In this document: positions 2,053-52,095 of the stretch, piece after piece
How the letters are laid out: the number at the start of each line of letters is the position of its first letter
Numbering within the stretch: position 1 is the first letter of the stretch
NCBI GenBank assembly: GCA_024239035.1
Contig: JANBVK010000001.1
Location: 107,010-171,009 of the forward strand
Direction of reading: 5' to 3'
DNA length: 64,000 nt
From: Patescibacteria group bacterium
GTDB lineage: Bacteria; Patescibacteriota; Minisyncoccia; UBA6257; GWB1-50-10
The notes under the pieces: generated by a model
What the model was told of the DNA's origin: nothing
The model's database searches: none
What the model saw: the letters and a program-made list of their open reading frames with translations, nothing else
Position numbers and translations under genes: made by a program

Positions 2053-3569
2053 AGTCCCATTAACCTATCTGCATTTTTATAAGCGAATTTTTCCTGAATC
2101 TCCGGGCTGAGTCCTCCTATGAAGTCTCTCGCAAACCATGTAACTTCGCCGTATACATCGTCATCGAAATGCCAAGAATAGAGGGCATCTGTTCCCCACA
2201 TTATTCTGTCTGGGTGGGCCTCTATTAGTGGCTTCCAGTAACGTAGTGCAGATGCTAAAATCCTATGATACATTTCATCGGAGTGTAAATTATTCAGGAA
2301 TTCTTCCTTGGTCATACCATCTATAGGTAGGCTATATGGATACATCAAACCCGCATCTATTGAGTAGTAGATATTATCATGCTCCCGGATAAGAAGCGGA
2401 ATAATTTTCTCCACCCCCTCATCACTATGCAGAAGGACTTTTGTTTTAGGATTGTCTCGTAACGCGTCATGTAAGTCATCAAGGTCACTCTCTCTTGGAT
2501 GAATCATGACTACTAAATTATTCAGAGCGGCGTAATCATAGAGCTCATACATCTCATCATCATTCAACCGAATATCCTTGTAGAGAGGATTTTCACTATC
2601 CACATGTATCTCGCCTATTCCTTTAATAGGATATTTTTTGACGTAGTCATCTATCAATTTTGTTGTAAAATACTTTCTCGACTTAATACCACTAAGACTA
2701 TCGGGAAAAAGGAAAGGATGTATTCTACCACAATATCTATTACCTATTTCCATGGCCTGCTTCAAAAAGGGATTAGTCCATTTTTTTTCTCTAATAACAA
2801 AAAAGTCATGGTTTAATGGAAGGAAACCGATTAAGCCGGTGACACCAAGAGTATCAAACATAGTAAAGATTTCATCTGCGTTATCTGAATTTATCAAGAG
2901 TTTAGTGTACTCAATTCCTTCCGGTGAATCTTGTGAATCTTGACCGGTTAGATGGAGATGTGCATCAAACAACGGACCGTCGTATTTCTCTTCAGGAAAA
3001 GATAGAGGTGAGGAGAGAAGGTTTGTATCAAGAATAAATGTTTTTGCGCTATCTTCTCCAATTCCATCGTGAACGAATCGGGCTATCTCTTTAGTAGAGT
3101 TGCCAACGACAGAGTAAAGTTTGTAGATGGTAGTTCCTGTCCCCTCTTTATTTATTTTAAATGTGGCGATGTCGCCATATTTCTGGACAATCGCATCATA
3201 CTCTGCAGTTATTGGAGGAAGAATATCTTCATTTGTCTCTGGTCTGGAGAGTTCATAAACAGTGAGCCCATCCACACTTACGTTCTTATCAGAGTTGGAT
3301 TCTTTATGTGGGATGTAGCTGGCAACCGTTACAGACTGAAGACCTTCCACTTCCACACTTGTCCATAAAGACGTTGTCTCAACGTTGACCTTCACTAGAT
3401 ACGTATCAGGAGGAGAGCCAAGAGTATTGGGTTCTGCGTTATATTCAAACGGCTTTTCAGTAATGACGCATGGTTCATTAAAATTATTCTCAATCTGTTT
3501 ATCTATAAAGAACGCTCCTCCCGCAATCACTCCAATAATAACTGGCACGAGAATTAATAGTTTTTTCAT
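2049..3569 (-). CDS. Membrane-anchored amidohydrolase-superfamily protein (HxH metal-binding motif)
   Basis: Motifs DAHLHLTG and GEIHVD are typical of metal-dependent amidohydrolases of the TatD/amidohydrolase-2 type. Likely start at the MKKLLILVPVIIGVIAGGAFF signal-anchor (3569) rather than the ORF-track start at 3665. Confidence 0.55.
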   Translation of the reverse strand: MKKLLILVPVIIGVIAGGAFFIDKQIENNFNEPCVITEKPFEYNAEPNTLGSPPDTYLVKVNVETTSLWTSVEVEGLQSVTVASYIPHKESNSDKNVSVDGLTVYELSRPETNEDILPPITAEYDAIVQKYGDIATFKINKEGTGTTIYKLYSVVGNSTKEIARFVHDGIGEDSAKTFILDTNLLSSPLSFPEEKYDGPLFDAHLHLTGQDSQDSPEGIEYTKLLINSDNADEIFTMFDTLGVTGLIGFLPLNHDFFVIREKKWTNPFLKQAMEIGNRYCGRIHPFLFPDSLSGIKSRKYFTTKLIDDYVKKYPIKGIGEIHVDSENPLYKDIRLNDDEMYELYDYAALNNLVVMIHPRESDLDDLHDALRDNPKTKVLLHSDEGVEKIIPLLIREHDNIYYSIDAGLMYPYSLPIDGMTKEEFLNNLHSDEMYHRILASALRYWKPLIEAHPDRIMWGTDALYSWHFDDDVYGEVTWFARDFIGGLSPEIQEKFAYKNADRLMGL

Positions 3570-3671
3570 ATTCAAGTTTATTTTTAAGTTTGCCATTACT
3601 TGTCTTGTACAAAAAGCCTTTTTAAAAATCCTGACACAAATCCCCGATTCTAGCAATTTATACAATAAAAA

Positions 3672-3789: not shown

Positions 3790-4908
3790 ATGACATCAAA
3801 ATCTAAAAAAATTGTTAGTAAATTATTTACGGAAGCCGATATAAAAATTAACGGCAGCCGGCCGTGGGACATTCAGACACACAACGAAAAACTTTTTGAC
3901 CGTCTAATAAACCAGGGTTCTATGGGTTTGGGAGAGTCTTATATGGACGGCTGGTGGGACACAGAAAAACTCGATCAGTTTTTTTACAAGATTTTTAGCG
4001 CTGGATTAGATAAAAAAATTAAGTACGACTGGAACCTTATCTTTGCATACTTAAAATCCAAGATACTAAACACGCAGACAAAACAACGAGCCAGGAAGGT
4101 GGCTGAAGAACACTATGATCTCAGCGCAGAGCTGTATGAATCGTTCCTGGATCCATATAATCAATACACGTGTGGATACTTCAAAAACACTAAAGATCTC
4201 AATAAAGCGCAGGAGCAAAAGCTTCGTCTTATCTGTGAGAAATTGCAGCTTTCGCCGCAAGATAAAGTCCTGGATATTGGCTGTGGCTGGGGAGGATTTG
4301 CTAAATTTGCTTCCGAACACTACAACTGTCATGTTACCGGCTTGACCATCTCAGATAAGCAGCTTAAATACGCCAAAAAATATTGCCGAGGACTTCCGGT
4401 TAAAATCATTAAATCAGACTACAGAGACATCAGCGGCAAATACGATAAAATAGTGATTTGCGGCATGATAGAGCACGTTGGCTATAAAAATTACAGGACT
4501 ATCATGAAAGTTGTTCACCGTTCTTTAAAAGATGATGGTCTTTTTCTATTACATACCATCGGAGGAAATACTTCAGTGACCACCGCAGATCCATGGATAT
4601 TAAAATATATTTTCCCGAATTCTATGCTTCCATCGATCAAACAAATTTCCTCCGCGACAGAGAGGCTGTTCGTTATTGAAGATTGGCACAATTTTAGTAC
4701 GCATTACTATAAAACATTGATGGCTTGGTTCGATAACTTTGATCGCAACTGGCAGAAATTAAAATCTCAATATGATGAACGTTTCTATCGAATGTGGAAA
4801 TACTATTTACTTTCTTTTGCAGGATCATTTCAGGCGCGTAAAAATCAGCTCTGGCAAATCGTATTCTCAAAGAAGGGTTTGCCGGGCGGATACACTTCAA
4901 TCAGGTAA
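3790..4908 (+). CDS. cfa: Cyclopropane-fatty-acyl-phospholipid synthase (SAM-dependent methyltransferase)
   Basis: LDIGCGWGGFAKFASEHYNCHVTGLTISDKQLKYAK SAM-binding motif. Overall CFA-synthase-like sequence and length (372 aa). Confidence 0.85.
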   Translation: MTSKSKKIVSKLFTEADIKINGSRPWDIQTHNEKLFDRLINQGSMGLGESYMDGWWDTEKLDQFFYKIFSAGLDKKIKYDWNLIFAYLKSKILNTQTKQRARKVAEEHYDLSAELYESFLDPYNQYTCGYFKNTKDLNKAQEQKLRLICEKLQLSPQDKVLDIGCGWGGFAKFASEHYNCHVTGLTISDKQLKYAKKYCRGLPVKIIKSDYRDISGKYDKIVICGMIEHVGYKNYRTIMKVVHRSLKDDGLFLLHTIGGNTSVTTADPWILKYIFPNSMLPSIKQISSATERLFVIEDWHNFSTHYYKTLMAWFDNFDRNWQKLKSQYDERFYRMWKYYLLSFAGSFQARKNQLWQIVFSKKGLPGGYTSIR

Positions 4909-6856: not shown

Positions 6857-7460
6857 ACTGACCTAGCGCGAATCTCAGTTTCCGCGACTTTCGCGAAAGG
6901 AATGCAACAGTGCTATCCAATACCAGCCCCACAACCGGGTAGGCAAAATCCTGTGGCTGACCGCTGTAGCGGAGTGCGACCACAATGATTCCTAGAGCGA
7001 ACGCGCTCATCCACACATACCACGCAAGCGGCTCTTCATTGTTCGGATCCCGCCAGACACCTTCAATGGTCGGCAGAAACCCGATTGATATCGCCGTGAT
7101 TATGAGTAGGTTCGCATAAGTTGCCTCCCTACTCACCCACCACACGAAAATTGCAGCAAAACCAATAGTAAGAATGACTAACTCGTGTCTTGTGGGTCTT
7201 ACAAACTTATTGCGCAGGAGTACGCTCCAGAAAATGAGGGTTGCACCAATTGTCCCGGCAATCACCTGCAGCGACTTTACCCAATCAGCGCTCATTGCGA
7301 AGTACGAACCGGCATTTAAACTCATCAAAAAGAACACGATCATCCATGTCACAACATTCGGCCTCGAGCTCCCCTTCTGTGCTTGGTGGTTATAGAGTAT
7401 ATACGCTAAAAGATGAAGAACTGCGACAACAACACCCAAATAAGTGGTGAATCGTTCCAA
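6855..7460 (-). CDS. Hypothetical polytopic membrane protein
   Basis: 201-aa ORF with about 5-6 hydrophobic segments. No recognisable catalytic motif. Confidence 0.5.
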   Translation of the reverse strand: MERFTTYLGVVVAVLHLLAYILYNHQAQKGSSRPNVVTWMIVFFLMSLNAGSYFAMSADWVKSLQVIAGTIGATLIFWSVLLRNKFVRPTRHELVILTIGFAAIFVWWVSREATYANLLIITAISIGFLPTIEGVWRDPNNEEPLAWYVWMSAFALGIIVVALRYSGQPQDFAYPVVGLVLDSTVAFLSRKSRKLRFALGQ

Positions 7461-7655: not shown

Positions 7656-8252
7656 ATGGAAAAGCCAAATACGGACACAACGGACACAAGAAAGAAACCT
7701 CTTATTTTAGTACTGGGGGGGACTTACGGCGTGGGTAAAACTACTCTCGCTCACCAGCTCTCTAAAGAATTAAATATCCCCCACCAAGCCGGCTTGGGTT
7801 TTTGCTACTATACTCTTAAAACTCTCCTACCAGATAATCCAATTGTTAAAAATTGGGGACTGTATAATACGTCAAATAAAACCTCCATAAAGAGAATATT
7901 ATTCCGGGAAGCCAAGTTAATTAGCAAAGTTATTCACACTCTTATAGATTCCGCCACTAAAACGGGAGAAAATTACATAATAGAGGGTCTCCAATTACTT
8001 CCTAAATACCTTCCTTTTGAGAAAATTCGCTACTGCGTTCTTACTGTTACCGATGCTGACGAATACAAAAGACGATTTGAACACCCCACAGAAACAAGAA
8101 CGAAACGCTTAAACAGCTCTACTCTCGAGATCGCAAAAACCATTGAAGAAATAATCCTAGAAGAGGCAGCACCTTACAATGTCCCTGTTTTTGATAATGT
8201 TTCACTAATCAGCGAAACATCGCAAAAAATTAGGGAGCATTTTGGGATTTAG
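7656..8252 (+). CDS. P-loop NTPase/kinase-like protein (Walker A GGTYGVGKTT)
   Basis: LVLGGTYGVGKTTLA Walker A near the N-terminus. Size and layout resemble small nucleotide/2-phosphoglycerate-kinase-like P-loop proteins. Confidence 0.5.
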   Translation: MEKPNTDTTDTRKKPLILVLGGTYGVGKTTLAHQLSKELNIPHQAGLGFCYYTLKTLLPDNPIVKNWGLYNTSNKTSIKRILFREAKLISKVIHTLIDSATKTGENYIIEGLQLLPKYLPFEKIRYCVLTVTDADEYKRRFEHPTETRTKRLNSSTLEIAKTIEEIILEEAAPYNVPVFDNVSLISETSQKIREHFGI

Positions 8253-8988: not shown

Positions 8989-9056
8989 CCCCCACACCTA
9001 ATGAGGATTGCGAAGCTCACGCTTCGTAAGAAGCAAATCCTCATTAGGTGTGGGGG
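8989..9056. promoter_or_regulatory. Long perfect inverted repeat (21-bp arms CCCCCACACCTAATGAGGATT ... AATCCTCATTAGGTGTGGGGG, 26-nt loop with an inner hairpin) just upstream of the CofE-like start and its AGGAG
   Basis: Seen directly in the sequence. Sits between the upstream terminator and the start codon. Confidence 0.5.
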
Positions 9057-9094
9057 GTAATTACTCGATAATAACGAAAAAGGTTTCTTTATGC

Positions 9095-9625: not shown

Positions 9626-9783
9626 AACCCCTCGCTGTGGTGGTTAGGTAAAAGGGTATATACAACGTACCACATTCAGCTTAACTTATAGTAATTAAGC
9701 CGTCAACAAAGCCGTATAGAGACAAAACCGGAATGTGGTAAAATAAAGATTAAAGGTCGCAGTATAATTATCTTTATTTAAAC

Positions 9784-10065
9784 ATGGCAAACACGGTAAT
9801 AAAAAAAGACGGAACTAAGAAGCCTTTTGATAGTGAGAAAATCAGAAAATCAATCGAGTCTGCCGCCGAAGAAGCGGGTCTGGAAAAAGAAAGAATTAGC
9901 GAAATCGTAAACCAGGTTGCAAATGAAACAATGCAATTGGCGGAAGGAAAAGAAGAAATTGCCACCAGCGAGCTTAAAGAAAAAATCCTAAGCACCCTTG
10001 ATACGGTTGAGCCGTCAGTCTCGGCGGCGTGGCGGGAATATGACAGCAAACGCAAAGCCCAGTAA
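9784..10065 (+). CDS. Stand-alone ATP-cone domain protein
   Basis: VIKKDGTKKPFDSEKIRKSIESA matches the ATP-cone signature of the NrdR/NrdD N-terminus. No zinc ribbon. 93 aa. Confidence 0.55.
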   Translation: MANTVIKKDGTKKPFDSEKIRKSIESAAEEAGLEKERISEIVNQVANETMQLAEGKEEIATSELKEKILSTLDTVEPSVSAAWREYDSKRKAQ

Positions 10066-10096
10066 GACTCTTAGTAAATTAGCGGAATATCCACAT

Positions 10097-10137
10097 CAGA
10101 ACCTCCGACAAGGCGTCGGAGGTTCTGATTTCTTACT
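10097..10137 (+). terminator. Rho-independent terminator (13-bp perfect stem CAGAACCTCCGAC/GTCGGAGGTTCTG followed by ATTTCTT)
   Basis: Starts about 30 nt after the stop of the ATP-cone gene. Confidence 0.7.
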
Positions 10138-10180
10138 AAAACCTCTTATATTTCACGAACAATAGTGTTAAAATTAAAGG

Positions 10181-16659: not shown

Positions 16660-16974
16660 TTATTGTGATGTACTTGTGACGTTCGGAACAATTATTATTA
16701 ACCCCTCCCCCTCTTCACGATAATTAAATTGGGACTTCAGTTCCTTGAGAAGATTCTCCGGATTCTGGAAATATTCTATCCGAGAAGTGAGCGTCCTATT
16801 CTCTTCCTCAAGTGATTTTAAAACTTCACTTAATTCTGCCGCTTCTTTTCCTAATAAATTTTTCTCCTGCACCAGATTATAAACCCCCCACCCCAAGAGA
16901 GCAATAACTATAATTAAAACCAAAACCTTCCATAACGGCATCACCTCCATTATAACGTCCTTTCGGATTACCAT
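16660..16974 (-). CDS. Septum-formation initiator family protein (FtsB/DivIC-like: TM plus coiled coil)
   Basis: Single TM WKVLVLIIVIALLGWGVY followed by heptad-rich LSEVLKSLEEENRTLTSRIEYFQN. True start may be the internal Met around 16941. Confidence 0.5.
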   Translation of the reverse strand: MVIRKDVIMEVMPLWKVLVLIIVIALLGWGVYNLVQEKNLLGKEAAELSEVLKSLEEENRTLTSRIEYFQNPENLLKELKSQFNYREEGEGLIIIVPNVTSTSQ

Positions 16975-16986
16975 CCAACCAAAAAA

Positions 16987-17169
16987 GTAGTTGATAATCT
17001 TTTCTGTAATATGCCGGAGCGAAGCTATAAATTAACGAATGAAAAACAGAAAAGTAGAAAAACAGCGCTGTTTGAGCGAAACGAGTTCGCTGTTTTTCGT
17101 CAAGCTTTTCTGTTTTGAGGAGTATAATTTATCTGAGTAAAGGCGATTGCAGAGAAGATTATCAACTAC
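16987..17169. repeat. Repeat element family, copy A (about 183 bp, 20-bp terminal inverted repeats, core bidirectional terminator hairpin). 3' TIR overlaps the lepA stop codon.
   Basis: 5' arm GTAGTTGATAATCTTTTCTG and 3' arm CAGAGAAGATTATCAACTAC. Core AAAAACAGCGCTGTTTGAGCGAAACGAGTTCGCTGTTTTT. More than 85% identical to the copies at 48800 and 50523. Confidence 0.75.
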
Positions 17170-18959
17170 TTCTTCAACAGTTCCCTAAACACATCCGGCG
17201 TAATCTTCGCTTGAGAACGCTCCTTTAAACGTTTCTTGCCCTTCTTCTGCTTCTGCCATAGTTTCATTTTCCTCGTCCTGTCCCCGCCGTAAAGATGACC
17301 GGTAACGTTCTTTTTTAAAGCCTGAATGTCCTCTCGCGCAATTATATTCGCCCCCACCGCTGCCTGAATCGGCTGTGCAAACTGCTGTCGCGGTAAAAGT
17401 TTCTTAAGACGCTTAATCATCTCCCGCCCTTCTTGTTCATAAGTGCTTTTAGGAAAAAACCGGCTAAGCCCCGGTACCAATATCCCAGAAATCAGCACAT
17501 CAACCCGCAGGACATCCGATTTTTTATAGCCGGCTAGCTCATAGCTAAAAGAGGCATACCCCTCTGTTGCAGACTTTAATTTATCATCAAAATCGCTTAT
17601 AAGTTCCGCTAAAGGCATATCCGCATCTAACTTAACCCTGTCCTGTAATGTTTCAGTCATAATATTACTCAACCGAAAAAGCTTCTGGAGCGGAAAAAGA
17701 CTATTAATGTGGTTTTCGGGAACAATTATCTCAATCCTCACCATCGGTTCCCAAATCTCATCAAAATTTTCGGGTAAATCTTCGGGTTTTATAATTTCAA
17801 TGTCAGTACCTTTAACTTTCACTCGATACACCACCGACGGAAACGTATTCATAATACTGATCCCGAACTCCCGCCTCAAACGTTCCGCAGTAATCTCAAA
17901 ATGGAGACGGCCTAAAAATCCAATTTTAAACCCCCTGCCCAGCACTTCATTTTGGTCAGGATCAACGGTCAAAGACGAATCATTAAGTTTAAGTTTTTGT
18001 AACCCGCGTTTTAAAAGTTCATGGTCATTGCTGTCTTCCGGATAAAAAGATACAAACACCACCGGCTTCGGCTCCTTATAACCCGTAAGGGGCTGATAAC
18101 TAGTCGCTGGTTGCTGGTTACTGGGGACTATAATAGTGTCCCCTATTTTAATCTTTTCCGGATCCTTGACGCCGGTTGCAATATAACCGATCTCCCCGGG
18201 CTTAATTTCGAGTACCGACTTTAGCTCGGGAATAAAATAACCCAATTCCTTAATCTTAGAACCAGTCTTAGTCGCCAAGAGGTATATGTTATCATCACTC
18301 TTAATTTTCCCGCTAAAAACTCTAACAGACGCAACGACACCCTTATGGTCGTCGTAGAAAGAATCAAAAATGAGAGCACGAGTGTGATTGCTTTCGTCTT
18401 TGGGTGACGGTATGCAGCGAACAACTCCTTCAAGTAATTCTTTAACGCCTTCTCCTGTCTTCCCCGAAACAAGAAAAATATCTTTCTGCGATACCCCTAG
18501 AAGTTGTGCAACCTCACGAACAGCTCTCTGTAGTCGATTGTCGCTGCGGTCCTCGAATAAGTCTATCTTACTTACCGCGCCGATAATTTTTAACCCTGCC
18601 GCTTTCGCTGCTCGAAAGTTCGCCAGAGTCTGCGCCTGAATCCCCTGCCCGGCATCAACGAGTAAAATCGCTCCCTCCACCGCTACAAGAGCCCGGGAAA
18701 CCTCGTAAGAGAAATCAGAATGGCCGGGAGTGTCAATAAGATTTAGGTCATAAGTTTCAGCTTTCAAGTTATAACTCATCCGCACGGGAGCCATCTTAAT
18801 CGTAATCCCCCGCTCCCGCTCAAGCTCAAGCTGATCCAAGTACTGCGCTTTCATCCGCCTCTCCGGAACCGTCCCCGTAATCTCTAAAAACCTATCCGCA
18901 AGCGTGGATTTACCGTGATCGATGTGAGCGATTATACAGAAATTCCTTATGTTCTTCAT
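17166..18959 (-). CDS. lepA: Translation elongation factor 4 (LepA/EF4)
   Basis: NFCIIAHIDHGKSTLADR G1 motif, DTPGH, and full-length (597 aa) LepA-like sequence including the LepA-specific C-terminal domain. Confidence 0.95.
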   Translation of the reverse strand: MKNIRNFCIIAHIDHGKSTLADRFLEITGTVPERRMKAQYLDQLELERERGITIKMAPVRMSYNLKAETYDLNLIDTPGHSDFSYEVSRALVAVEGAILLVDAGQGIQAQTLANFRAAKAAGLKIIGAVSKIDLFEDRSDNRLQRAVREVAQLLGVSQKDIFLVSGKTGEGVKELLEGVVRCIPSPKDESNHTRALIFDSFYDDHKGVVASVRVFSGKIKSDDNIYLLATKTGSKIKELGYFIPELKSVLEIKPGEIGYIATGVKDPEKIKIGDTIIVPSNQQPATSYQPLTGYKEPKPVVFVSFYPEDSNDHELLKRGLQKLKLNDSSLTVDPDQNEVLGRGFKIGFLGRLHFEITAERLRREFGISIMNTFPSVVYRVKVKGTDIEIIKPEDLPENFDEIWEPMVRIEIIVPENHINSLFPLQKLFRLSNIMTETLQDRVKLDADMPLAELISDFDDKLKSATEGYASFSYELAGYKKSDVLRVDVLISGILVPGLSRFFPKSTYEQEGREMIKRLKKLLPRQQFAQPIQAAVGANIIAREDIQALKKNVTGHLYGGDRTRKMKLWQKQKKGKKRLKERSQAKITPDVFRELLKK

Positions 18960-33710: not shown

Positions 33711-33911
33711 TTAAAGGAGGTAAAACTCTTTACTCGTGAGTATGTCGGAGAGTGTTATAAAATTCGCGAGAGAGAATGATAAGCAATAGAACAAAATTGT
33801 TGTTTGAGCGAAGCGAGTTTGATTTTGTTCGTCTTTGCTTCATTCAAGCAAGCTTGAATTTTAAACACTCGGAGACTTTTACGAATGAGAAAGAGCTTTA
33901 GCGAACTAACT

Positions 33912-36028: not shown

Positions 36029-36055
36029 GAATCTATTTATAGTGATCTCGTCAAA

Positions 36056-36331
36056 TTATTTTTTCCGCATCAACAACAAGCGACGCTCTGGCGTATAGTG
36101 CCACCACGGATGCGACGGAGCGCCGTTCATAAAAGCCACGGCAGCCATAAAAGTGTCCAGTAAACACGGATCATGCCGCTTACCGGTTTTCTTATTAAGT
36201 CTCTCGTAGAGCTTCAATGGGTCATTGTTTTTAAGCTCACTTGGTCTTGTAATACCCACCTCGCGAAAACACCGCGCTATTTTCGGCCCCACGTTCGGGA
36301 TATCTTCTAATTTCTTAATCATACTTTGCAA
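36056..36331 (-). CDS. Helix-hairpin-helix domain protein (Cdd1/mitomycin-resistance-like HhH)
   Basis: LEDIPNVGPKIARCFREVGITRPSEL HhH motif. 91 aa. Confidence 0.5.
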   Translation of the reverse strand: MQSMIKKLEDIPNVGPKIARCFREVGITRPSELKNNDPLKLYERLNKKTGKRHDPCLLDTFMAAVAFMNGAPSHPWWHYTPERRLLLMRKK

Positions 36332-36376
36332 AAACTTTTTCTCCCCCCTAATTTTACCACCTCTTTCACTTAAAAC

Positions 36377-36466
36377 CCTAACGGTTCAACGACACCCATC
36401 GTTGAGCCGTTAAGATTACCGCACGTCTTCACTTCATCCACATATGTGGACAAAGTGAAGACACGC
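36377..36466. repeat. Two-hairpin intergenic repeat, copy 2 (both hairpins intact: AACGGTTCAACG/CGTTGAGCCGTT and GTCTTCACTT-caTCCACATATGTGGAca-AAGTGAAGAC)
   Basis: Matches copy 1 at 3672..3762 except the loop of hairpin 1 (ACCCAT here, GGGTG there). Confidence 0.6.
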
Positions 36467-36523
36467 AAAAATCCAGAAAAAAACAAAAAGCCGCACGCAG
36501 AGCATGCAGCTTTCTGCGGCGGC
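36466..36523 (-). terminator. Rho-independent terminator of the PurM-like gene (GCCGCCGCAGAAAGCTGCATGCTCTGCGTGCGGC plus TTTTTGTTTTTTTCTGG on the minus strand)
   Basis: GC-rich hairpin followed by a long T-run in the minus orientation, 26 nt after the stop. Confidence 0.75.
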
Positions 36524-36548
36524 TGTTACTAGCCATAACGTGTTGCGG

Positions 36549-38824: not shown

Positions 38825-39241
38825 GCCTTTTTCTTCCTCTCTTCGATTGGGAATGTACGATTTCAGCCCGACTATCGGGCTGATTACTAAAATCCGGAAC
38901 GTAGATCTCAGGAGGGCAGAATGACCAGAGAATGTGAAACGGGCCTGTATTGCAACCCATCGCCGACCTCCTTCAGACGATCGTATTCCTTCGCGAGCAC
39001 TTCAGACAACGTTCTATTGAGACTACTCTCGTCTACGTTTGATACAAACCCCACTCCAAAATGATGGAAACCCTTAACATCAGTTCCAGAGCTGAATGTA
39101 TGGAACAGAACAGAAAGAAAGAAATGACAGGACATATACGCCTCCCAATATGAGTAACAAGCAAGTCAAGGTTCTGCGGAAAAGGATGACACCAGCAAGA
39201 CAAATTGTCAATTCCCACCCTTCGCCATTAAAAATGGTCAG

Positions 39242-39315
39242 TGGGCGGAACAGGATTCGAACCCGTGACCTTTCGGATGTGACCCGAACGCTCTAACCAA
39301 CTGAGCTACCCGCCC
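39242..39315 (-). tRNA. tRNA-Val (anticodon CAC), no encoded CCA. The high-GC island abuts its 3' end.
   Basis: GGGCGGGTAGCTCAGTTGGTTAGAGCGTTCGGGTCACATCCGAAAGGTCACGGGTTCGAATCCTGTTCCGCCCA cloverleaf. Confidence 0.8.
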
Positions 39316-39391
39316 ATCATCCACACCACTATTGTACCCCAAGAAACGGAGCCAACAGTTCTTGCTATCACACAAGAATTATTTTTCTCTC

Positions 39392-40275: not shown

Positions 40276-40394
40276 AAAAAAAGCGGCATCGTGCCGCAAA
40301 ACATAAAAATCCTTACTCTCCTACATAGGACTTATCCGCCTATTGGCGGACCTATGATCTGCGGATACGTGTACATATTAGCCTACCTCAAGTA
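40276..40394 (-). promoter_or_regulatory. Probable ribosomal-protein L10 leader (autoregulatory 5' UTR) with hairpins GCGGCAtcgtGCCGC and CCGCCtattGGCGG
   Basis: Structured region of about 120 nt between an upstream terminator and the rplJ start. This is the conserved position of the L10 leader in bacteria. Confidence 0.45.
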
Positions 40395-40473
40395 AATGTC
40401 AACACCGCCAAAAAACGAAGCGGCACTGATTGTAAGTGCCGCTTGGTTTTGTACTCTGCTCTGGCGAGATACA

Positions 40474-40665
40474 TCATCGTGCAAAAAGCATTATCACAAC
40501 AACGCCGATCATAATGATGAAAAGGATCCGCTCTAGCCAGTTCCGCCCCTTCTTGCCGTAGAACGGGTGTGGTCGATACTCTCGCCGAATATTTCGAGAC
40601 ATAACCCCTCTCTGTTGAAGTTCTATAAAGATTAATACCTCAAAAAGCCTGTGTGTGTCAAACAA
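40474..40665 (-). CDS. Small hypothetical protein with C-terminal TM (63 aa)
   Basis: ORF followed by the hairpin AAGCGGCACTTACAATCAGTGCCGCTT plus a T-run (minus orientation) at about 40395-40445. Confidence 0.3.
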   Translation of the reverse strand: MFDTHRLFEVLIFIELQQRGVMSRNIRREYRPHPFYGKKGRNWLERILFIIMIGVVVIMLFAR

Positions 40666-40703
40666 AAACCCAACCTTAAATCAGCGCCTCGAAAGGTTTT
40701 TAG

Positions 40704-48709: not shown

Positions 48710-48799
48710 ACTACTCCACAAAATAAGATTTTTGTTTCTGAAGAAACCTGTCGGAGCGAGACGGTGAACATAATCCACCGCTTATCACCCAATCAAAAA

Positions 48800-48987
48800 G
48801 TAGTTCATAAATTCTCCTCTGTAGTATGCCGGAGCGAAGTCATAAATTAACGAACGAGAAACTAAAAAGTAGAAAAACAGTGCTGTTTGAGCGAAGCGAG
48901 TTCGCTGTTTTTCGTTAAGCTTTTCTGTTTTGAGGAGTATATATTTATCTGAGTAAAGGCGGCTACAGAGGAGAATTTATGAACTAC
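48800..48987. repeat. Repeat element family, copy B (188 bp, perfect 25-bp TIRs GTAGTTCATAAATTCTCCTCTGTAG / CTACAGAGGAGAATTTATGAACTAC)
   Basis: Core is more than 90% identical to copies A and C. Lies between convergent genes. Confidence 0.75.
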
Positions 48988-48994
48988 ACAACCC

Positions 48995-49789
48995 TTACTG
49001 ATAATAAATCCTGTTTGGCACGCGGAAATCAAAATAAATCACTTTACTAAACTCAAACCGCTTATCCAAATTCTTAATAATCCCCTCCAAGTTATCCGGC
49101 GCAAAATTTAAACTAAAGTAAAATATCGGCCCCGAAGCCACCTCTGCCTGCCACTCCTCGAGAGCTAAATCTCTTATCTCAACGGACGAGACGATAAAAT
49201 CATAATTATCTAGAGTTCCCAATGTTTGAAATACATTCTCTACCCGCACCGGATCGTTAAGAATGGGGTTGCCTAAAATCACCGGACGGTTATTTATATC
49301 TTCAATTTTCAAAATCAAAACCCCCTGAACGTCCGGCACGCGGGCAAAAACAATACCCTGCCGATCAAAACCGTAACAATCATTCTCTAAGACACACCAA
49401 ACCCCGAACAACTCCCTCTCGTGAGCGCCAATGATCACTTTCTTTTCTCCTAAATTCGTCTTGATATTTATCTCTCCCAAAACCGGCAACGAACTGAGAA
49501 ATTCAGGTTTTTTACCAAACTCCCAAAAGAGTATATTATCCGACCCTAATAACGAACGTAGGCGGCTATCACTTATCATTTTTGCATTCAAAGAGGCAAA
49601 TAACACATCGTTAGAAATAAGTTTAGAACCGTTAACCTCAAAACTTTCGACTTTTAAAAAATCGGCATAAAGCACAAAATACGCAAACCCTATAAGCGCG
49701 GCACCGAGGAGAAATCCCGCTCCTGACCACAGCAAAAATCTCAAACGTATTAATCTCTTTTTCTTCTTTTGAAAAGGTAAATCTTGCAT
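48995..49789 (-). CDS. ftsQ: Cell division protein FtsQ/DivIB-like (TM plus POTRA)
   Basis: N-terminal TM then VESFEVNGSKLISNDVLFASL POTRA-like segment. Confidence 0.5.
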   Translation of the reverse strand: MQDLPFQKKKKRLIRLRFLLWSGAGFLLGAALIGFAYFVLYADFLKVESFEVNGSKLISNDVLFASLNAKMISDSRLRSLLGSDNILFWEFGKKPEFLSSLPVLGEINIKTNLGEKKVIIGAHERELFGVWCVLENDCYGFDRQGIVFARVPDVQGVLILKIEDINNRPVILGNPILNDPVRVENVFQTLGTLDNYDFIVSSVEIRDLALEEWQAEVASGPIFYFSLNFAPDNLEGIIKNLDKRFEFSKVIYFDFRVPNRIYYQ

Positions 49790-49795
49790 TGCTTG

Positions 49796-50452
49796 CTATT
49801 CGTAAACCCTCACAGGGAATGAATATGTATACTCTGATGCTCCCTCCTCCTGCACCTCAACGCTCACTGGATAATCACCTTTTGAAAGCCAGGTATGACT
49901 TAAAAATCGAACCTCATCCGGAAAAGATTCTCCTTCCTCTCTTTCTCCATCACCCCAATCAACTGAGTAAATAGAAACTCTATTAATTGATACGATAAGC
50001 GGCGTCCCTACCTTAGTAATAATCGTCGCTGGCGGCGGAGGAACAAGAAAGAGGGAACTCGCCTCAGCTGGAAGTGTTTCGCTCTCACCTCCTGTGATAG
50101 AATTAATCGTTAAAATTCCCTGGGGAGAAACCACGGTTGGAGTATTGTTAACCAAAGAACCTGCAAATGACTGAATTTTCTTTCCTACAGGAAAAATGGT
50201 TTCCGCAACTTTCTGTTTTACGTACTGCTTTGCCGTCTCCTCCGTCTCCTCTTTTGCTTCCCGGACTGCCTGGGCTCTCTCACGTGCCTTATTTTCTAAA
50301 CTATCAACTATACTGCCGAGGAACTGCCCCGCTCCTCCTCTCGTCTCACTCCCCGTATCACCGCTCCACCACCGAGCATACCCAAAGTAACCCCCGTATG
50401 AGATCCCCACAAACAGAAGAACCCAAAATACACCAATAAAGAGACGACGCAT
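49796..50452 (-). CDS. Hypothetical secreted/anchored protein
   Basis: N-terminal TM. No recognisable domains. Confidence 0.45.
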   Translation of the reverse strand: MRRLFIGVFWVLLFVGISYGGYFGYARWWSGDTGSETRGGAGQFLGSIVDSLENKARERAQAVREAKEETEETAKQYVKQKVAETIFPVGKKIQSFAGSLVNNTPTVVSPQGILTINSITGGESETLPAEASSLFLVPPPPATIITKVGTPLIVSINRVSIYSVDWGDGEREEGESFPDEVRFLSHTWLSKGDYPVSVEVQEEGASEYTYSFPVRVYE

Positions 50453-50522
50453 TACACTTATACTACCACTCTCCCCTTACGAATAGTCAAGTAAATCTCT
50501 TTTTACTACCCAACCCTAAAAA

Positions 50523-50639
50523 GTAGTTGATAAATCTTCTCTGTAATATGTCGGAGCGAAGTTATAAATTAACGAACGAGAAACTGAAAAGTAGAAAAAC
50601 AGTGCTGTTTGAGCGAAGCGAGTTCGCTGTTTTTCGTTA
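50523..50639. repeat. Repeat element family, copy C, 3'-truncated after the core hairpin (lacks the 3' TIR)
   Basis: 5' TIR GTAGTTGATAAATCTTCTCTG plus the conserved core to ...CGCTGTTTTTCGTTA. Confidence 0.7.
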
Positions 50640-50669
50640 CCTTATTACACCACATCCCACAAACGTAAT

Positions 50670-50834
50670 CAGCTTTTAGCTGAGGACAGATTGCTTTTCG
50701 GAATATCTCGCAGTCCCGTTGGGCTTGGTCTCGAGCGAGGTGAGAGCCAGCGGGACGAGGGAAAAGAAAGTTTTACCGCTGGAGTAAAACTATTCTGGTT
50801 CCGAAAGGTAACTGTCCGAGGATACTAAAAGCTG
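50670..50834. ncRNA. Candidate structured RNA of about 165 nt (long closing stem with tandem G-A internal loop, 10-bp second stem, mutually exclusive inner helices), abutting the serS stop
   Basis: CAGCTTTTAG pairs CTAAAAGCTG. GGACAG pairs CTGTCC. CTTTTCGGAA pairs TTCCGAAAGG. CCAGCGG/CCGCTGG competes with GTTTTAC/GTAAAAC. Confidence 0.4.
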
Positions 50835-50835
50835 A

Positions 50836-52095
50836 CTACTTCCTTCCTATCTCACTCTTCCCCACATAATCTTTCAGCGCTTTTGGAACTTTGATAGTTC
50901 CCCGCTGAGTTTGATAATTCTCAAATATCGCAACTAAAGTCCGCCCAATAGCAAAAGCTGTAGCGTTCAACATATGGACAAACTCTTTCTTCTCTCCCCT
51001 CATCTCATATTTAGTATTAACGCCGCGCGCTTGAAAATCAGTAGTATTAGAGCACGAATGGGTTTCCCGATAAGTCCCCTCTCCGGGAAGCCACGCCTCA
51101 ATATCATGCTGTTGCGCATCAGTCCAGCCCATATCCCCCGTGCATATCTCAACCACTCTGTAAGGGATATCAAGTTTTTCCATTAACTTTTCCTGAAGAG
51201 AAAGTAAAATTTCATACTCCTTAACCGAATCCTTTGGTTTAGTGAATGAGAACATTTCCACTTTATCAAATTGGTGAACTCGCAAAATCCCTTTAGTATC
51301 TTTACCGTATGAGCCCGCCTCCCTCCTAAAACAGGTTGAAAAACCAACATATCGTCGGGGTAGTGTTTTTTCGTTCAATACCTTATTCATATGCATCGGC
51401 CCTATAGTGTGCTCCGCGCTTCCTACCAAATATAGATCGTCTTTGGGTAAATAATAACGTTCCTCTTTCTGGTCTGCGGCAAGTCTCCCCATACCGGCGA
51501 ATGCCTCAGGACGAATCATTACCGGCGGCACAACCGGAATAAATCCATGTGGTAGAAGCGTGTCATATGCAAGCTTCACAAGCCCGAACTCAAGGAGCAC
51601 TGCGTCCCTTAATATATAACTGAAACGAGTGCCCGTCACTTGAGAGGCGCTCTGAATGTCAATCAAGCCTAAATTTTCTGCTAAATCGAGGTGACTTTTC
51701 GGTTGAAATTTAAACTTCGGTTTCTTGCCAACTTCCCTTAAAACTTTATTAAAAGATTCATCTTTACCAACAGGGACGTCCTTAAAGGGTAAGTTGGGTA
51801 AGTAGCTCAAAACCTCATCTCGTTTTTTACCGAAGGTTTCACTCTCACCTTTTATTTGAATAATGCGCTTCTTTAAAATCTGTGCCCGGTTTAACGAGTA
51901 GTCTCTACGACCTTCAGCGAGTTCACTGGTAACCTTATTTTGCTCCGCTTTAAGTTGATCTAGGGCGGCTATTTTTTTCCTCCACTCATCATCCAATCTA
52001 AGAAACTTATCAACAAGCTTTGGATCAACATTTTTTTTAGTAATTCCTTCTCTTACCTTATCTGGATTTTCGCGAATTATATTTACGTCGAGCAT
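50836..52095 (-). CDS. serS: Seryl-tRNA synthetase
   Basis: Class II motifs, N-terminal coiled coil, 419 aa. Confidence 0.95.
   Translation of the reverse strand: MLDVNIIRENPDKVREGITKKNVDPKLVDKFLRLDDEWRKKIAALDQLKAEQNKVTSELAEGRRDYSLNRAQILKKRIIQIKGESETFGKKRDEVLSYLPNLPFKDVPVGKDESFNKVLREVGKKPKFKFQPKSHLDLAENLGLIDIQSASQVTGTRFSYILRDAVLLEFGLVKLAYDTLLPHGFIPVVPPVMIRPEAFAGMGRLAADQKEERYYLPKDDLYLVGSAEHTIGPMHMNKVLNEKTLPRRYVGFSTCFRREAGSYGKDTKGILRVHQFDKVEMFSFTKPKDSVKEYEILLSLQEKLMEKLDIPYRVVEICTGDMGWTDAQQHDIEAWLPGEGTYRETHSCSNTTDFQARGVNTKYEMRGEKKEFVHMLNATAFAIGRTLVAIFENYQTQRGTIKVPKALKDYVGKSEIGRK

What the first reader, a model, noticed from the sequence alone, without database searches (positions are those of the whole stretch)
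50670..50834. Highly structured element of about 165 nt abutting the serS stop codon
Nested helices: a 10-bp closing stem (CAGCUUUUAG/CUAAAAGCUG), a 3-nt bulge, 2 bp, a tandem G-A/A-G internal loop and a 6-bp GGACAG/CUGUCC helix. Further in there is a 10-bp CUUUUCGGAA/UUCCGAAAGG helix, a GUCCCG/CGGGAC helix, and two mutually exclusive inner helices (CCAGCGG/CCGCUGG versus GUUUUAC/GUAAAAC). Alternative pairing plus a tandem GA motif resembles a regulatory or protein-binding RNA. The pairing is strand-symmetric, so orientation is open. Placement 2 nt after the serS stop favours a serS 3'-UTR-derived sRNA or a stabiliser on the minus strand. I found no RNase P, tmRNA or SRP signature motifs. 6S-like size and architecture is one possibility.
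Basis: seen in the sequence. Interest (0 to 1): 0.55.

Follow-up and report, generated by a model that had tools for sequence, protein, structure and literature searches.

The report
Conserved folded repeat element beside serS
The 165-base element next to serS is a real, conserved folded element. It reads on the strand opposite serS and belongs to an undescribed family of hairpin elements that sit just after stop codons in one clade of tiny (Patescibacteria/CPR) bacteria; it is not a 6S-like or serS-specific RNA.

Summary
The fold is far better than chance: -81.1 kcal/mol, z -9.2 on the + strand.

The + strand is the structured strand, and it is antisense to serS. The serS-sense strand folds to only -58 kcal/mol. 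G·U pairs number 42 against 13 across seven related elements.

No Rfam family matches on either strand. Homologues lie in related Patescibacteria contigs: L011 after serS, and L014 after a different gene. The stems co-vary strongly (20 of 31 core pairs changed on both sides, 96.7% still paired). The loops are conserved: GCUUGGU, the apex YGAGCGARGYGAG, and CGCUGGA.

The element is not tied to serS:
- Close relatives lack it and carry a plain terminator there.
- Others carry a different family member at the same two intergenic sites.
- The window holds a related repeat of about 200 nt in 3-4 copies, same orientation, also against stop codons. One truncated copy sits directly upstream of the finding.

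Best reading: a new family of strand-specific, REP/ERIC/MITE-like structured intergenic elements occupying the terminator slot. Function is unproven. A stand-alone antisense sRNA remains a live rival.

The parts
50670..50834 (+). The whole element ('E165'): a long interrupted closing stem P1 carrying a three-way junction with hairpins P2 and P3. The structured strand is +, antisense to serS.
   Evidence: fold, z-scores, G·U asymmetry. Homologues were found.
50670..50704 (+). 5' strand of P1: 10 bp, then CUGA, then a 6-bp GGACAG, an A bulge and 14 bp.
   Evidence: L011 and L014 also have long closing stems, with unrelated sequences.
50798..50834 (+). 3' strand of P1. It ends 1 nt before the complement of the serS stop codon.
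50680..50683 (+). CUGA on the 5' strand. Together with GAG-GAUAC at 50818-50825 it forms the tandem G·A/A·G loop. An alternative reading is a box-C/D-like kink-turn: C-stem GGACAG/CUGUCC, 3-nt loop GAG, then G·A, A·G, U·U.
   Evidence: Read directly from the sequence. The motif is partly present in L011 (UUGA ... GA with a 6-nt loop) and absent in L014.
50706..50762 (+). Hairpin P2. It comprises P2a UCUC/GGGA, a GCA bulge, and P2b GUCCCGUUGG/CCAGCGGGAC. It continues with the conserved 7-nt bulge GCUUGGU (50723-50729) and the conserved apex (50730-50746).
   Evidence: Covariance model R1 aligns L011 (51 bits) and L014 (23 bits). Eight of the 10 P2b pairs changed on both sides.
50730..50746 (+). 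Apex 'cap' CUC-GAGCGAGGUGAG-AG. It can fold as C-G, G·A, A·G, G·U, C-G plus a GAG triloop. It is a diverged copy of YGAGCGAAGCGAG, which contains the GCGAAGC mini-hairpin.
   Evidence: The same cap occurs in L011 and L014, in the window's R200 repeats, and as the loop of variable-stem hairpins in IMG/VR contigs.
50765..50796 (+). Hairpin P3: AGAA-A-GUUUUAC / GUAAAAC-UA-UUCU, with the conserved loop CGCUGGA at 50777-50783.
   Evidence: Ten of the 12 pairs changed on both sides across win, L011 and L014. The loop is CGCUGGA / CGCUGGA / CGGCUGGG in the three.
50836..52095 (-). serS (419 aa), convergent with the element's structured strand.
   Evidence: Pfam Seryl_tRNA_N plus tRNA-synt_2b. The identical protein lies on a 729-kb Patescibacteria scaffold.
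50503..50639 (+). Truncated copy (5' arm plus apex) of the multi-copy repeat 'R200', directly upstream of the element. Its apex is AAAAACAG-UGCUGUUUGAGCGAAGCGAGUUCG-CUGUUUUU, which also matches a + strand terminator-like pattern.
48787..48992 (+). Full R200 copy: a long imperfect hairpin whose 3' arm ends 2 nt before the stop codon of the convergent 264-aa gene.
   Evidence: G·U pairs are 8 on the forward strand against 2 on the reverse complement.
16968..17174 (+). Full R200 copy. Its 3' arm contains the stop codon (CTA at 17166-17168) of the convergent gene 17166-18959.
   Evidence: G·U pairs are 6 on the forward strand against 0 on the reverse complement.
33741..33832 (+). Diverged partial R200 copy (about 70-77% identical).
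49796..50452 (-). Downstream co-directional gene (218 aa, weak PKD-like match). The element lies between the serS stop codon and the start of this gene.

Best explanation
The element is one member of a previously undescribed, lineage-specific superfamily of folded intergenic elements, 145-225 nt long. The family occurs in a clade of Patescibacteria near Jorgensenbacteria/Paceibacteria.

Shared features of members:
- A long closing stem.
- GA-rich internal loops.
- An apex built on YGAGCGARGYGAG.
- The slot between the stop codon of one gene and the promoter of the next, with the 3' end 1-17 nt from the stop codon.
- The structured strand antisense to those genes.

The window's member is a three-way-junction type (P1, P2, P3), shared with L011 and L014.

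Most likely mode of action (inferred, not shown). It behaves like REP/ERIC/Correia-type structured repeats. It spreads or is exchanged among a few permissive 'end-of-gene' sites. It is kept folded by selection on one single-stranded form, most simply RNA read from the + strand. It stands where relatives have an ordinary terminator. There it would separate serS from the downstream transcription unit and block or stabilise transcripts running antisense towards serS.

Shown: the structure, its strand, conservation with compensatory change, family membership, patchy and site-swapping distribution, and absence from Rfam.

Inferred: transcription, mobility, and any insulating, terminating or stabilising role.
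For: **Structure and strand**
- z -9.2 on the + strand against -6.2 on the - strand.
- The forward strand is more stable in all 7 elements: win -81.1/-58.0; L011 -66.1/-38.8; L014 -75.9/-59.6; L022 -65.2/-51.1; L029 -72.7/-62.6; R16968 -79.4/-60.2 and R48787 -74.9/-56.4.
- G·U pairs: 42 forward against 13 reverse, with only 2 A·C 1x1 mismatches.

**Homology**
- A model built from the window sequence alone finds L011 (E 1e-10) and L014 (E 2e-3).

**Covariation**
- Core: 31 pairs, 96.7% paired, 20 pairs changed on both sides, against 2-4 in slid controls.
- L022 against L029: 53 pairs, 100% paired, 11 double changes against at most 1.

**Not serS-specific; patchy**
- Present after serS in the window, L011 and L029.
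- Present after the 238-269-aa gene 'Y' in L014, L022 and L039, and as R200 in the window.
- Absent at both sites in L017, L018, L020, L024 and L030.
- Element type does not track site.
- Relatives without it have plain terminators right after serS (L030, L014).

**Repeat nature**
- R200 has 3-4 copies in 64 kb, all on the + strand and all against stop codons.
- Copies differ by compensatory changes in the stem (GTTGATAA/TTATCAAC against GTTCATAA/TTATGAAC).
- Intergenic GAGCGAR occurs 9 times on the + strand and 0 times on the - strand.
- Two assemblies break at these elements (L005 inside R200; L010 2 nt after the serS stop).

**Not a known family**
- Rfam gives nothing for the window or for six related loci.
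- No blastn match in phage or plasmid records.
Against: - Only one copy of this exact type lies in the 64-kb window. The rest of the 729-kb genome could not be read, so 'repeat' status for this type is inferred from relatives and from R200.
- No target-site duplication and no cognate transposase were seen.
- A branched three-way junction with conserved loops looks more like a dedicated functional RNA than a simple palindromic repeat.
- No sigma-70-like promoter is predicted upstream on the + strand, except in L011.
- No U-tract follows the window element on the + strand, so + strand transcription is unproven.
- On the serS-sense strand, U-rich tracts follow several family members (R200, L014, L022, L029). 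This fits a sense-strand terminator role and sits awkwardly with the G·U asymmetry.
- Only 3 (core) and 2 (rod type) sequences support the covariation counts, and alignment A8 was fitted to the model's structure.
Confidence: 0.5

Rival explanations
1. A stand-alone, stable, trans-acting small RNA gene on the + strand, convergent with serS. The paired 5' and 3' ends protect it from decay. The kink-turn-like GA loop, the GA-rich apex and the two displayed GCUKGG motifs (bulge GCUUGGU and P3 loop CGCUGGA) would bind a protein, or pair with CCAGC/CCAAGC-type targets.
For: - Strand asymmetry and G·U pattern.
- A three-way junction with conserved single-stranded motifs and co-varying stems.
- An A/T-rich -10-like box lies directly 5' of the closing stem in several members: TATAAT in L014, and TAGTCA-17-AATAAT in L011.
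- The ends are paired, as in other stable bacterial RNAs. This last point is general knowledge, not tested here.
Against: - No promoter-like site is predicted for the window copy or for most others.
- No terminator follows on the + strand.
- Presence, absence and locus vary among relatives whose serS is 82-87% identical, which is unusual for a core sRNA.
- It shares its slot, orientation and apex with an obviously repetitive family.
Confidence: 0.25
2. A DNA-level hairpin element. One DNA strand folds as single-stranded DNA or a cruciform and is recognised by an enzyme, such as a REP/RAYT-like or IS200/IS605-like HUH transposase, or a priming or recombination protein. The RNA fold would be a by-product.
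For: - The apex in L011, L014 and R200 contains GCGAAGC flanked by tandem G·A in a Y-GA-R context.
- GCGNAGC mini-hairpins are extraordinarily stable as DNA and much less so as RNA. They occur at ssDNA-phage primase origins, ssiA and N4 hairpin promoters (PMC13037366).
- The cap is found as a hairpin loop in diverse IMG/VR contigs, in two cases next to terminase genes.
- R200 termini are GTAG...CTAC. This resembles the GTAG next to REP sequences, which is the author's recollection and was not tested.
- Distribution is patchy, at hot-spot sites.
Against: - As DNA the two strands fold about equally (-37.7 against -32.3 kcal/mol). The many G·U/G·T positions therefore give a clear advantage only at RNA level.
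- The window's own apex is GCGAGGU, not a canonical GCGNAGC.
- By GC skew the structured strand is the leading-strand template, not the strand most exposed as ssDNA.
- No transposase and no target duplication were seen.
Confidence: 0.15
3. One reading: a serS 3'-UTR structure on the minus strand, acting as a terminator or 3' stabiliser, or as a 3'-UTR-derived sRNA.
For: - It starts 1 nt after the serS stop codon.
- The reverse complement still folds well (-58 kcal/mol, z -6.2).
- The basal 10-bp stem is perfect Watson-Crick on both strands.
- A weak terminator-like pattern was called on the - strand at 50683-50669.
- Relatives have ordinary terminators in this slot.
- U-rich tracts follow several family members on the sense strand.
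Against: - The strand asymmetry is consistent and opposite in 7 of 7 elements.
- In L011 the sense-strand closing stem is broken by five A·C mismatches.
- The sense-strand tail after the window element is only AUUACGUUUGU.
- The element is not linked to serS (L014, L022, L039).
- The genome has canonical strong terminators elsewhere on the - strand, for example 36322-36513.
Confidence: 0.08
4. A 6S-like RNA that mimics an open promoter and sequesters RNA polymerase.
For: The size (165 nt) and the long closing stem. No 6S RNA was detected elsewhere in the window.
Against: - No 6S family scores even at E<=10.
- The junction has 1-3-nt linkers rather than a large central bubble.
- The conserved architecture is a three-way junction.
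- The element is absent or differently built in close relatives.
Confidence: 0.02

Closest known systems
REP/BIME and REPIN elements, ERIC, Correia (NEMIS), RUP and BOX-type structured intergenic repeats (MITE-like)
   Same: - Imperfect palindromes of 100-200 nt that fold into long hairpins.
- Confined to intergenic regions at gene ends.
- Multi-copy relatives in the same genome.
- Patchy presence among relatives.
- Stems kept by compensatory change.
- Assembly breaks at the elements.
   Different: - No sequence similarity to any of them (no Rfam or blastn match).
- A branched three-way junction with conserved loops.
- A GA-rich YGAGCGARGYGAG apex.
- Strict antisense orientation and abutment of stop codons.
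- No target duplication or transposase seen.
- The host is a Patescibacteria lineage. The two literature searches on Patescibacteria/CPR asked about 6S and structured RNA, not repeats, and turned up no comparable element.
GCGNAGC 'mini-hairpin' (d(GCGAAGC)) motifs at ssDNA origins, ssiA and N4 virion-RNAP promoters
   Same: The family's apex in L011, L014, R200 and many viral-contig hairpins contains GCGAAGC closed by C-G, with a GAA triloop (PMC13037366).
   Different: - Here the mini-hairpin is extended by tandem G·A pairs and sits on a 145-225-nt folded element.
- The window's own apex is a variant (GCGAGGU).
- No primase, Rep or N4-like polymerase context was found.
- The RNA-level G·U pattern argues against a purely DNA role.
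Kink-turn (box C/D-type K-turn)
   Same: The window's P1 internal loop can be read as: C-stem GGACAG/CUGUCC, 3-nt loop GAG, G·A, A·G, U·U. An exact CUGA (D-box-like) sits on the non-bulged strand.
   Different: - The C-box side is GGAUAC rather than RUGAUGA.
- Position 4b·4n is A·C.
- The motif is not conserved in L014 and is atypical (6-nt loop) in L011.
- No L7Ae-family protein was looked for.
6S RNA
   Same: Similar length, and the 5' and 3' ends are paired in a long helix.
   Different: - No central bubble.
- No match to the Rfam 6S models.
- The fold is a three-way junction.
- Not universally present in the clade.

Membership tests
6S RNA | Scores against a curated 6S covariance model (Rfam 6S families) | tested here: not met
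   cmscan of 50400-51000 on both strands at E<=10 gave only a spurious lncRNA hit. The whole window at E<=0.5 gave no 6S hit.
6S RNA | Large single-stranded central bubble between a closing stem and a terminal stem | tested here: not met
   The MFE and centroid folds show a three-way junction with 1-3-nt linkers. The same junction is conserved in L011 and L014.
6S RNA | Binds sigma-70 holoenzyme and templates product RNA | not testable with these tools
   This needs biochemistry.
REP/REPIN/MITE-like structured intergenic repeat | Multiple copies per genome | tested here: inconclusive
   The E165 type is single-copy in 64 kb. The related R200 type has 3-4 copies.
REP/REPIN/MITE-like structured intergenic repeat | Terminal inverted repeats or a long hairpin, confined to intergenic DNA | tested here: met
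   All members lie in intergenic gaps.
REP/REPIN/MITE-like structured intergenic repeat | Presence/absence and site variation among close relatives | tested here: met
   serS relatives at 82-87% identity carry it after serS (L029), after gene Y (L014, L022, L039) or not at all (L017, L024).
REP/REPIN/MITE-like structured intergenic repeat | Target-site duplication flanking the element | tested here: not met
   No direct repeats flank the win, L022 or L029 elements.
REP/REPIN/MITE-like structured intergenic repeat | Cognate transposase (RAYT or other) in the genome | not tested
   Only the ten genes nearest the element were scanned, and none is a transposase. The rest of the genome is unavailable.
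Intrinsic (Rho-independent) terminator | G+C-rich stem immediately followed by a U-tract on the transcribed strand | tested here: inconclusive
   No site was called for the + strand element. Only a weak - strand pattern was called (TCAGCTAAAAGCTGA + TTACGTTTGT). Family members R200, L014, L022 and L029 do have U-rich tracts on the sense strand.
Kink-turn | C-stem, 3-nt loop, tandem sheared G·A/A·G, non-Watson-Crick 3b·3n pair | tested here: inconclusive
   The window sequence fits under an alternative pairing. The fit is partial in L011 and absent in L014. Three-dimensional geometry and protein binding cannot be tested here.
GCGNAGC mini-hairpin | G-C, C-G stem closing a G-N-A triloop | tested here: not met
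   The window apex is GCGAGGU: a G·U closing pair and a GAG loop. L011, L014 and three of the four R200 copies have exact GCGAAGC; R16968 has GCGAAAC.
Hammerhead ribozyme | CUGANGA, stem II, GAAA and stem III around a cleavage site | tested here: not met
   CUGAGGA occurs at 50680-50686, but no GAAA follows the enclosed helix. There is no Rfam hammerhead hit, and the motif is absent in L011.

The most novel reading that the evidence does not exclude
Two readings remain open.

1. E165-type elements are a new class of stable, strand-specific regulatory RNA of CPR bacteria. The fold is a three-way junction on a K-turn-bearing stem that displays two GCUKGG motifs and a tandem-GA cap. It would act in trans on a protein or on CCAGC/CCA-type targets.

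2. The whole superfamily is a new kind of mobile hairpin element. Its hyperstable YGAGCGAAGCGAG cap, shared with hairpins in phage contigs, would be the recognition handle for an as-yet-unknown enzyme.
Probability: 0.2. Interest if true: 0.75.

Novelty: new variant of a known kind. Interest (0 to 1): 0.55.

Why it matters
CPR/Patescibacteria have tiny genomes with little spare DNA, and almost nothing is known about their non-coding elements. This case shows a family of 150-225-nt folded elements kept in shape by compensatory evolution. Members are oriented antisense to their neighbours, pressed against stop codons, and swapped among a few intergenic sites.

If they are transcribed, they are a new set of CPR RNAs. 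These might act as insulators or antisense regulators at gene ends, or as protein-binding RNAs.

If they are mobile, they are the first REP/MITE-like system described for this clade, and a practical cause of assembly breaks.

The shared GA-rich cap also turns up in phage-contig hairpins. That may point to a broadly used hairpin module that has no entry in RNA family databases.

Tried and rejected
**Known RNA families.** Rfam was scanned at gathering and permissive thresholds on the region, the whole window, six related loci and twelve viral loci. Nothing was found at any element. The only real hits were tRNAs and one unrelated hammerhead II in L187.

**Conservation downstream of serS in distant relatives.** The genome contigs and metagenome-contig scans with SerS found only proteins 38-59% identical. 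None had the element; the next genes follow serS directly.

**Loop motif in viral contigs.** The scan with TTGGTYTCGAGCGARGYGAGA returned 0 hits.

**Apparent insertion polymorphism.** The extra gap in L034/L037 relative to L030 was only a gene-calling difference.

**Small protein.** No reading frame is kept open or conserved across win, L011, L014, L022 and L029.

**Hammerhead.** CUGAGGA at 50680 has no GAAA partner and there is no model hit.

Its partner is not conserved in L011. Read as a pseudoknot it would also leave a 1-nt loop crossing a 7-bp helix.

**Kissing between the P2 apex and the P3 loop.** It would give 3+4 bp with a G·G mismatch in win and L011, and only 3 bp in L014. It is not supported.

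**Promoter search upstream of all eight elements.** Only L011 has a sigma-70-like site adjacent to the element.

**Stop-codon context.** AAGTAG/AAGTAA ends the convergent gene for 6 of 8 elements. These represent only about 3 independent genes, so the pattern is not significant.

**Other searches.**
- blastn against annotated phages and plasmids gave no match.
- Literature searches for the 12-mer and for CPR 6S or structured RNAs found nothing relevant.
- Model R1 on 100 viral loci gave only weak, cap-only matches.
Full report

As RNA the + strand folds to -81.1 kcal/mol, against -46.5 +/- 3.8 for dinucleotide shuffles (z -9.2).

The fold has three parts:
- P1, a long interrupted closing stem: 10 bp, then a CU/GG step, a tandem GA and an AUA bulge, then 6 bp, an A bulge and 14 bp.
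- P2 (50706-50762), one arm of a three-way junction.
- P3 (50765-50796), the other arm.

serS is the 419-aa ORF at 50836-52095 on the minus strand (Pfam). Its TAG stop codon is one base beyond the last paired base of the element.

**2. Which strand?**

It is not. The serS-sense strand folds to only -58.0 kcal/mol (z -6.2).

Eight of the 66 + strand pairs are G·U, and these become A·C on the other strand. The bias recurs in every relative found later (forward/reverse, kcal/mol):
- L011: -66.1 / -38.8
- L014: -75.9 / -59.6
- L022: -65.2 / -51.1
- L029: -72.7 / -62.6
- Two R200 repeats in the window: -79.4 / -60.2 and -74.9 / -56.4

. In total there are 42 G·U pairs on the forward strand against 13 on the reverse, with only two A·C 1x1 mismatches in the forward folds.

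Known mutational biases are C-to-T change on the G-rich leading strand and on the non-template strand. The window's GC skew is negative throughout. These biases would enrich G·U on the gene-sense strand, the opposite of what is seen. That step is inference.

As DNA the two strands fold about equally (-37.7 against -32.3 kcal/mol). Selection therefore acts on a single-stranded form of the + strand, most simply RNA. That strand is antisense to serS.

**3. Is it a known RNA?**

No.
- Rfam 15 gives only three tRNAs in the window at gathering thresholds.
- Nothing credible appears at E<=10 in 50400-51000 on either strand.
- The whole window at E<=0.5 gives nothing relevant.
- Six related loci give no hit.
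- blastn against annotated phages and plasmids finds nothing.
- No reading frame is conserved across the homologues.

**4. Source and relatives**

The identical SerS protein lies on a 729-kb scaffold of a metagenome-assembled Patescibacteria genome.

Distant SerS loci (38-59% identity) have no such element; the next genes follow serS directly.

Among closer relatives (66-84% SerS identity), contig look-ups gave the following.

| Locus | SerS identity to the window | Where the element is |
|---|---|---|
| L011/L012 | 71% | Homologous element 8 nt after the serS stop, same antisense orientation |
| L014-16 | 70% | Only a small terminator after serS; a homologous element 2 kb further on, after a 238-aa gene 'Y' |
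| L029 | 68% | A related rod-shaped element after serS |
| L022 | 68% | The same rod-shaped element, after Y |
| L039 | 66% | Another family member after Y |
| L017, L018, L020, L024, L030 | 66-70% | None at either site; L030 has a textbook terminator after serS |

Within the group whose SerS proteins are 82-87% identical to each other, site and element type are uncorrelated:
- L022 and L029 carry near-identical apical domains at different sites.
- L014 and L022 carry different types at the same site.

**5. Covariation**

A covariance model was built from the window's core alone (50705-50797, with the structure given by hand). It recovers L011 at 51 bits (E about 1e-10) and L014 at 23 bits (E about 2e-3), and nothing else in 199 kb of CPR loci.

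On the resulting three-sequence alignment:
- 96.7% of cells are paired.
- 20 of 31 pairs changed on both sides, against 2-4 when partners are slid by 1-3 columns.
- 0 of 500 shuffles reach the observed values.

P2b changes from GUCCCGUUGG/CCAGCGGGAC to AGCGAAAAA/UUUUUCGCU. P3 changes at 10 of its 12 pairs.

L022 against L029 gives 53 pairs, 100% paired, with 11 double changes against at most 1 in slid controls.

Caveats: there are few sequences, and alignment A8 was fitted to the model's structure.

The conserved unpaired parts are:
- the 7-nt bulge GCUUGGU (GCAGGGU in L014);
- the apex YGAGCGARGYGAG;
- the P3 loop CGCUGGA (CGGCUGGG in L014).

It is therefore not conserved.

**6. A repeat family in the same window**

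The 137 nt upstream of the finding (50503-50639) match 48787-48917 (92%), 16968-17100 (90%) and 33741-33832 (77%).

The two best copies are full imperfect hairpins of about 205 nt (R200). Their 3' arms reach the stop codons of convergent genes:
- The stop of gene 17166-18959 lies inside one arm.
- The stop at 48995-48997 lies 2 nt beyond the other arm.

.

All copies are on the + strand. Intergenic GAGCGAR occurs 9 times on the + strand and never on the - strand. Copies differ by compensatory changes in the stem.

The R200 apex is AAAAACAG-UGCUGUUUGAGCGAAGCGAGUUCG-CUGUUUUU. It is homologous to P2 of L011 (GAAAAA-GCUUGGUUUCGAGCGAAGCGAGAA-UUUUUC), and hence to the finding's apex.

The copy next to the finding has lost its 3' arm, and E165 stands in its place. 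Two assemblies break at these elements: L005 ends inside R200, and L010 ends 2 nt after the serS stop.

**7. The apex 'cap'**

UCGAGCGAAGCGAGA can continue a helix as U-A, C-G, G·A, A·G, G-C, C-G, closing a GAA triloop. It contains GCGAAGC. GCGNAGC mini-hairpins are extraordinarily stable as DNA and considerably less stable as RNA. They occur at ssDNA-phage primase origins, at ssiA and in N4 hairpin promoters (PMC13037366).

Exact-pattern scans of IMG/VR returned many hits. No chance expectation is given for these scans. Many hits look like chance or coding matches; one large prophage cluster has the motif inside an ORF.

A subset has the motif as the loop of hairpins with unrelated, perfectly complementary stems: L110, L115, L129, L136, L175, L177, L187, L191, L223, L240 and L246. 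L042/L099 carry a 230-nt folded element. In the second scan these hits share three further bases (TGT) that were not part of the search pattern.

Orientation relative to the neighbouring genes is mixed, and two of these hairpins sit just upstream of terminase genes. The E165 three-way core itself is not found in these viral contigs.

The window's own apex (GCGAGGU) is a diverged version of the cap.

**8. The GA loop**

Besides the MFE reading, the P1 internal loop fits a box-C/D-like kink-turn:
- C-stem GGACAG/CUGUCC;
- loop GAG;
- G·A, A·G, U·U;
- an exact CUGA on the opposite strand.

L011 has a looser version (UUGA ... GA with a 6-nt loop), and L014 has none. I treat this as a lead, not a finding.

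**9. What it most likely is and does**

The evidence is solid for three statements:
- It is a real, conserved, strand-specific fold.
- It is not linked to serS.
- It belongs to a larger family of folded elements that occupy end-of-gene slots and turn over quickly.

The most economical reading is a REP/ERIC/Correia-like structured intergenic element family, new in sequence and architecture. Its + strand single-stranded form is under selection, and it stands where relatives have a terminator.

Transcription, mobility and any insulating or terminating role are inferred. No convincing + strand promoter or terminator is seen for the window copy. Several family members have U-tracts on the gene-sense side. 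That keeps a sense-strand terminator contribution possible for the basal stem.

Rivals:
- A stand-alone antisense sRNA, favoured by the branched fold and conserved loops.
- A DNA-level hairpin element, favoured by the mini-hairpin cap and its occurrence in phage contigs.
- 6S, rejected.

**10. Verdict**

The element is a new variant of a known kind, structured intergenic repeats. There is a reasonable chance (about 0.2) that it is something more novel: a new CPR sRNA class, or a new mobile hairpin system. Interest is 0.55.

Noticed in passing
window 16968-17174, 48787-48992, 50503-50639 (truncated), 33741-33832 (diverged): A repeat of about 205 nt ('R200') that folds into a long imperfect hairpin. 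All copies are on the + strand, and the 3' arms reach or contain the stop codon of a convergent gene. Its termini are GTAG...CTAC and its apex is CUGUUUGAGCGAAGCGAGUU. Copies differ by compensatory stem changes.
   Followed up: partly
IMG/VR loci L110, L115, L129, L136, L175, L177, L187, L191, L223, L240, L246, L042/L099: The 12-19-nt cap (Y)GAGCGAAGCGAG, or TGTTTGAGCGAAGCGAGTT, forms the loop of hairpins with unrelated complementary stems in viral contigs ranging from 34% to 63% G+C. L187 and L223 are 100-nt hairpins that differ by compensatory changes. There is no Rfam family at these sites.
   Followed up: partly
L175 around 1481 and L042 around 3490-3600: In two phage contigs the cap-bearing hairpin or folded element lies in the gap immediately upstream of a terminase gene (large subunit in L175, small subunit in L042), on the same strand as that gene.
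   Followed up: no
L142 1038-1135: Four copies of GAGCGAAGCGA lie within about 95 nt of one intergenic region of a 3.8-kb viral contig.
   Followed up: no
window 8989-9057: A near-perfect palindrome of about 70 nt (CCCCCACACCTAATGAGGATT...AATCCTCATTAGGTGTGGGGG) lies between two minus-strand genes. Its centre contains GCGAAGC, and it is equally stable on both strands.
   Followed up: no
window 36322-36513 (minus strand): Three consecutive strong hairpins, one of them followed by a long U-tract (-78 to -85 kcal/mol on the - strand against -57 to -63 on the + strand, depending on the exact range folded). They look like a stack of canonical minus-strand terminators, which shows that the genome does use ordinary terminators.
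   Followed up: no
L020 around 7320-7365 and 8120-8165: A different, perfect 40-nt palindrome (CACACCAAGTTATTTCGCCATGGCGAAATAACTTGGTGTGG) occurs in two neighbouring intergenic gaps of a relative that lacks the E165 and R200 elements.
   Followed up: no
L005 (end at 4486) and L010 (end at 1803): Two independent assemblies stop at these elements: one inside the truncated R200, the other 2 nt after the serS stop codon of an 84%-identical relative. This suggests that the repeats break short-read assemblies.
   Followed up: partly
window 9626-10180, 36029-36548, 38825-39391, 40300-40703: Four unusually long intergenic regions (400-570 nt) for such a compact genome. Several fold better on the minus strand. 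Apart from one tRNA, none has an Rfam match.
   Followed up: no
L011 2560-2600 (locus + strand): A perfect sigma-70-type promoter (TTGACT-17-TATAAT) for the gene downstream of the element. Its -35 box overlaps a weaker, oppositely oriented promoter-like site (TAGTCA-17-AATAAT) that ends 3 nt before the element.
   Followed up: partly
L187 3881-3947: A type II hammerhead ribozyme (72 bits) lies in a viral contig that also carries a cap hairpin about 9.6 kb away.
   Followed up: no
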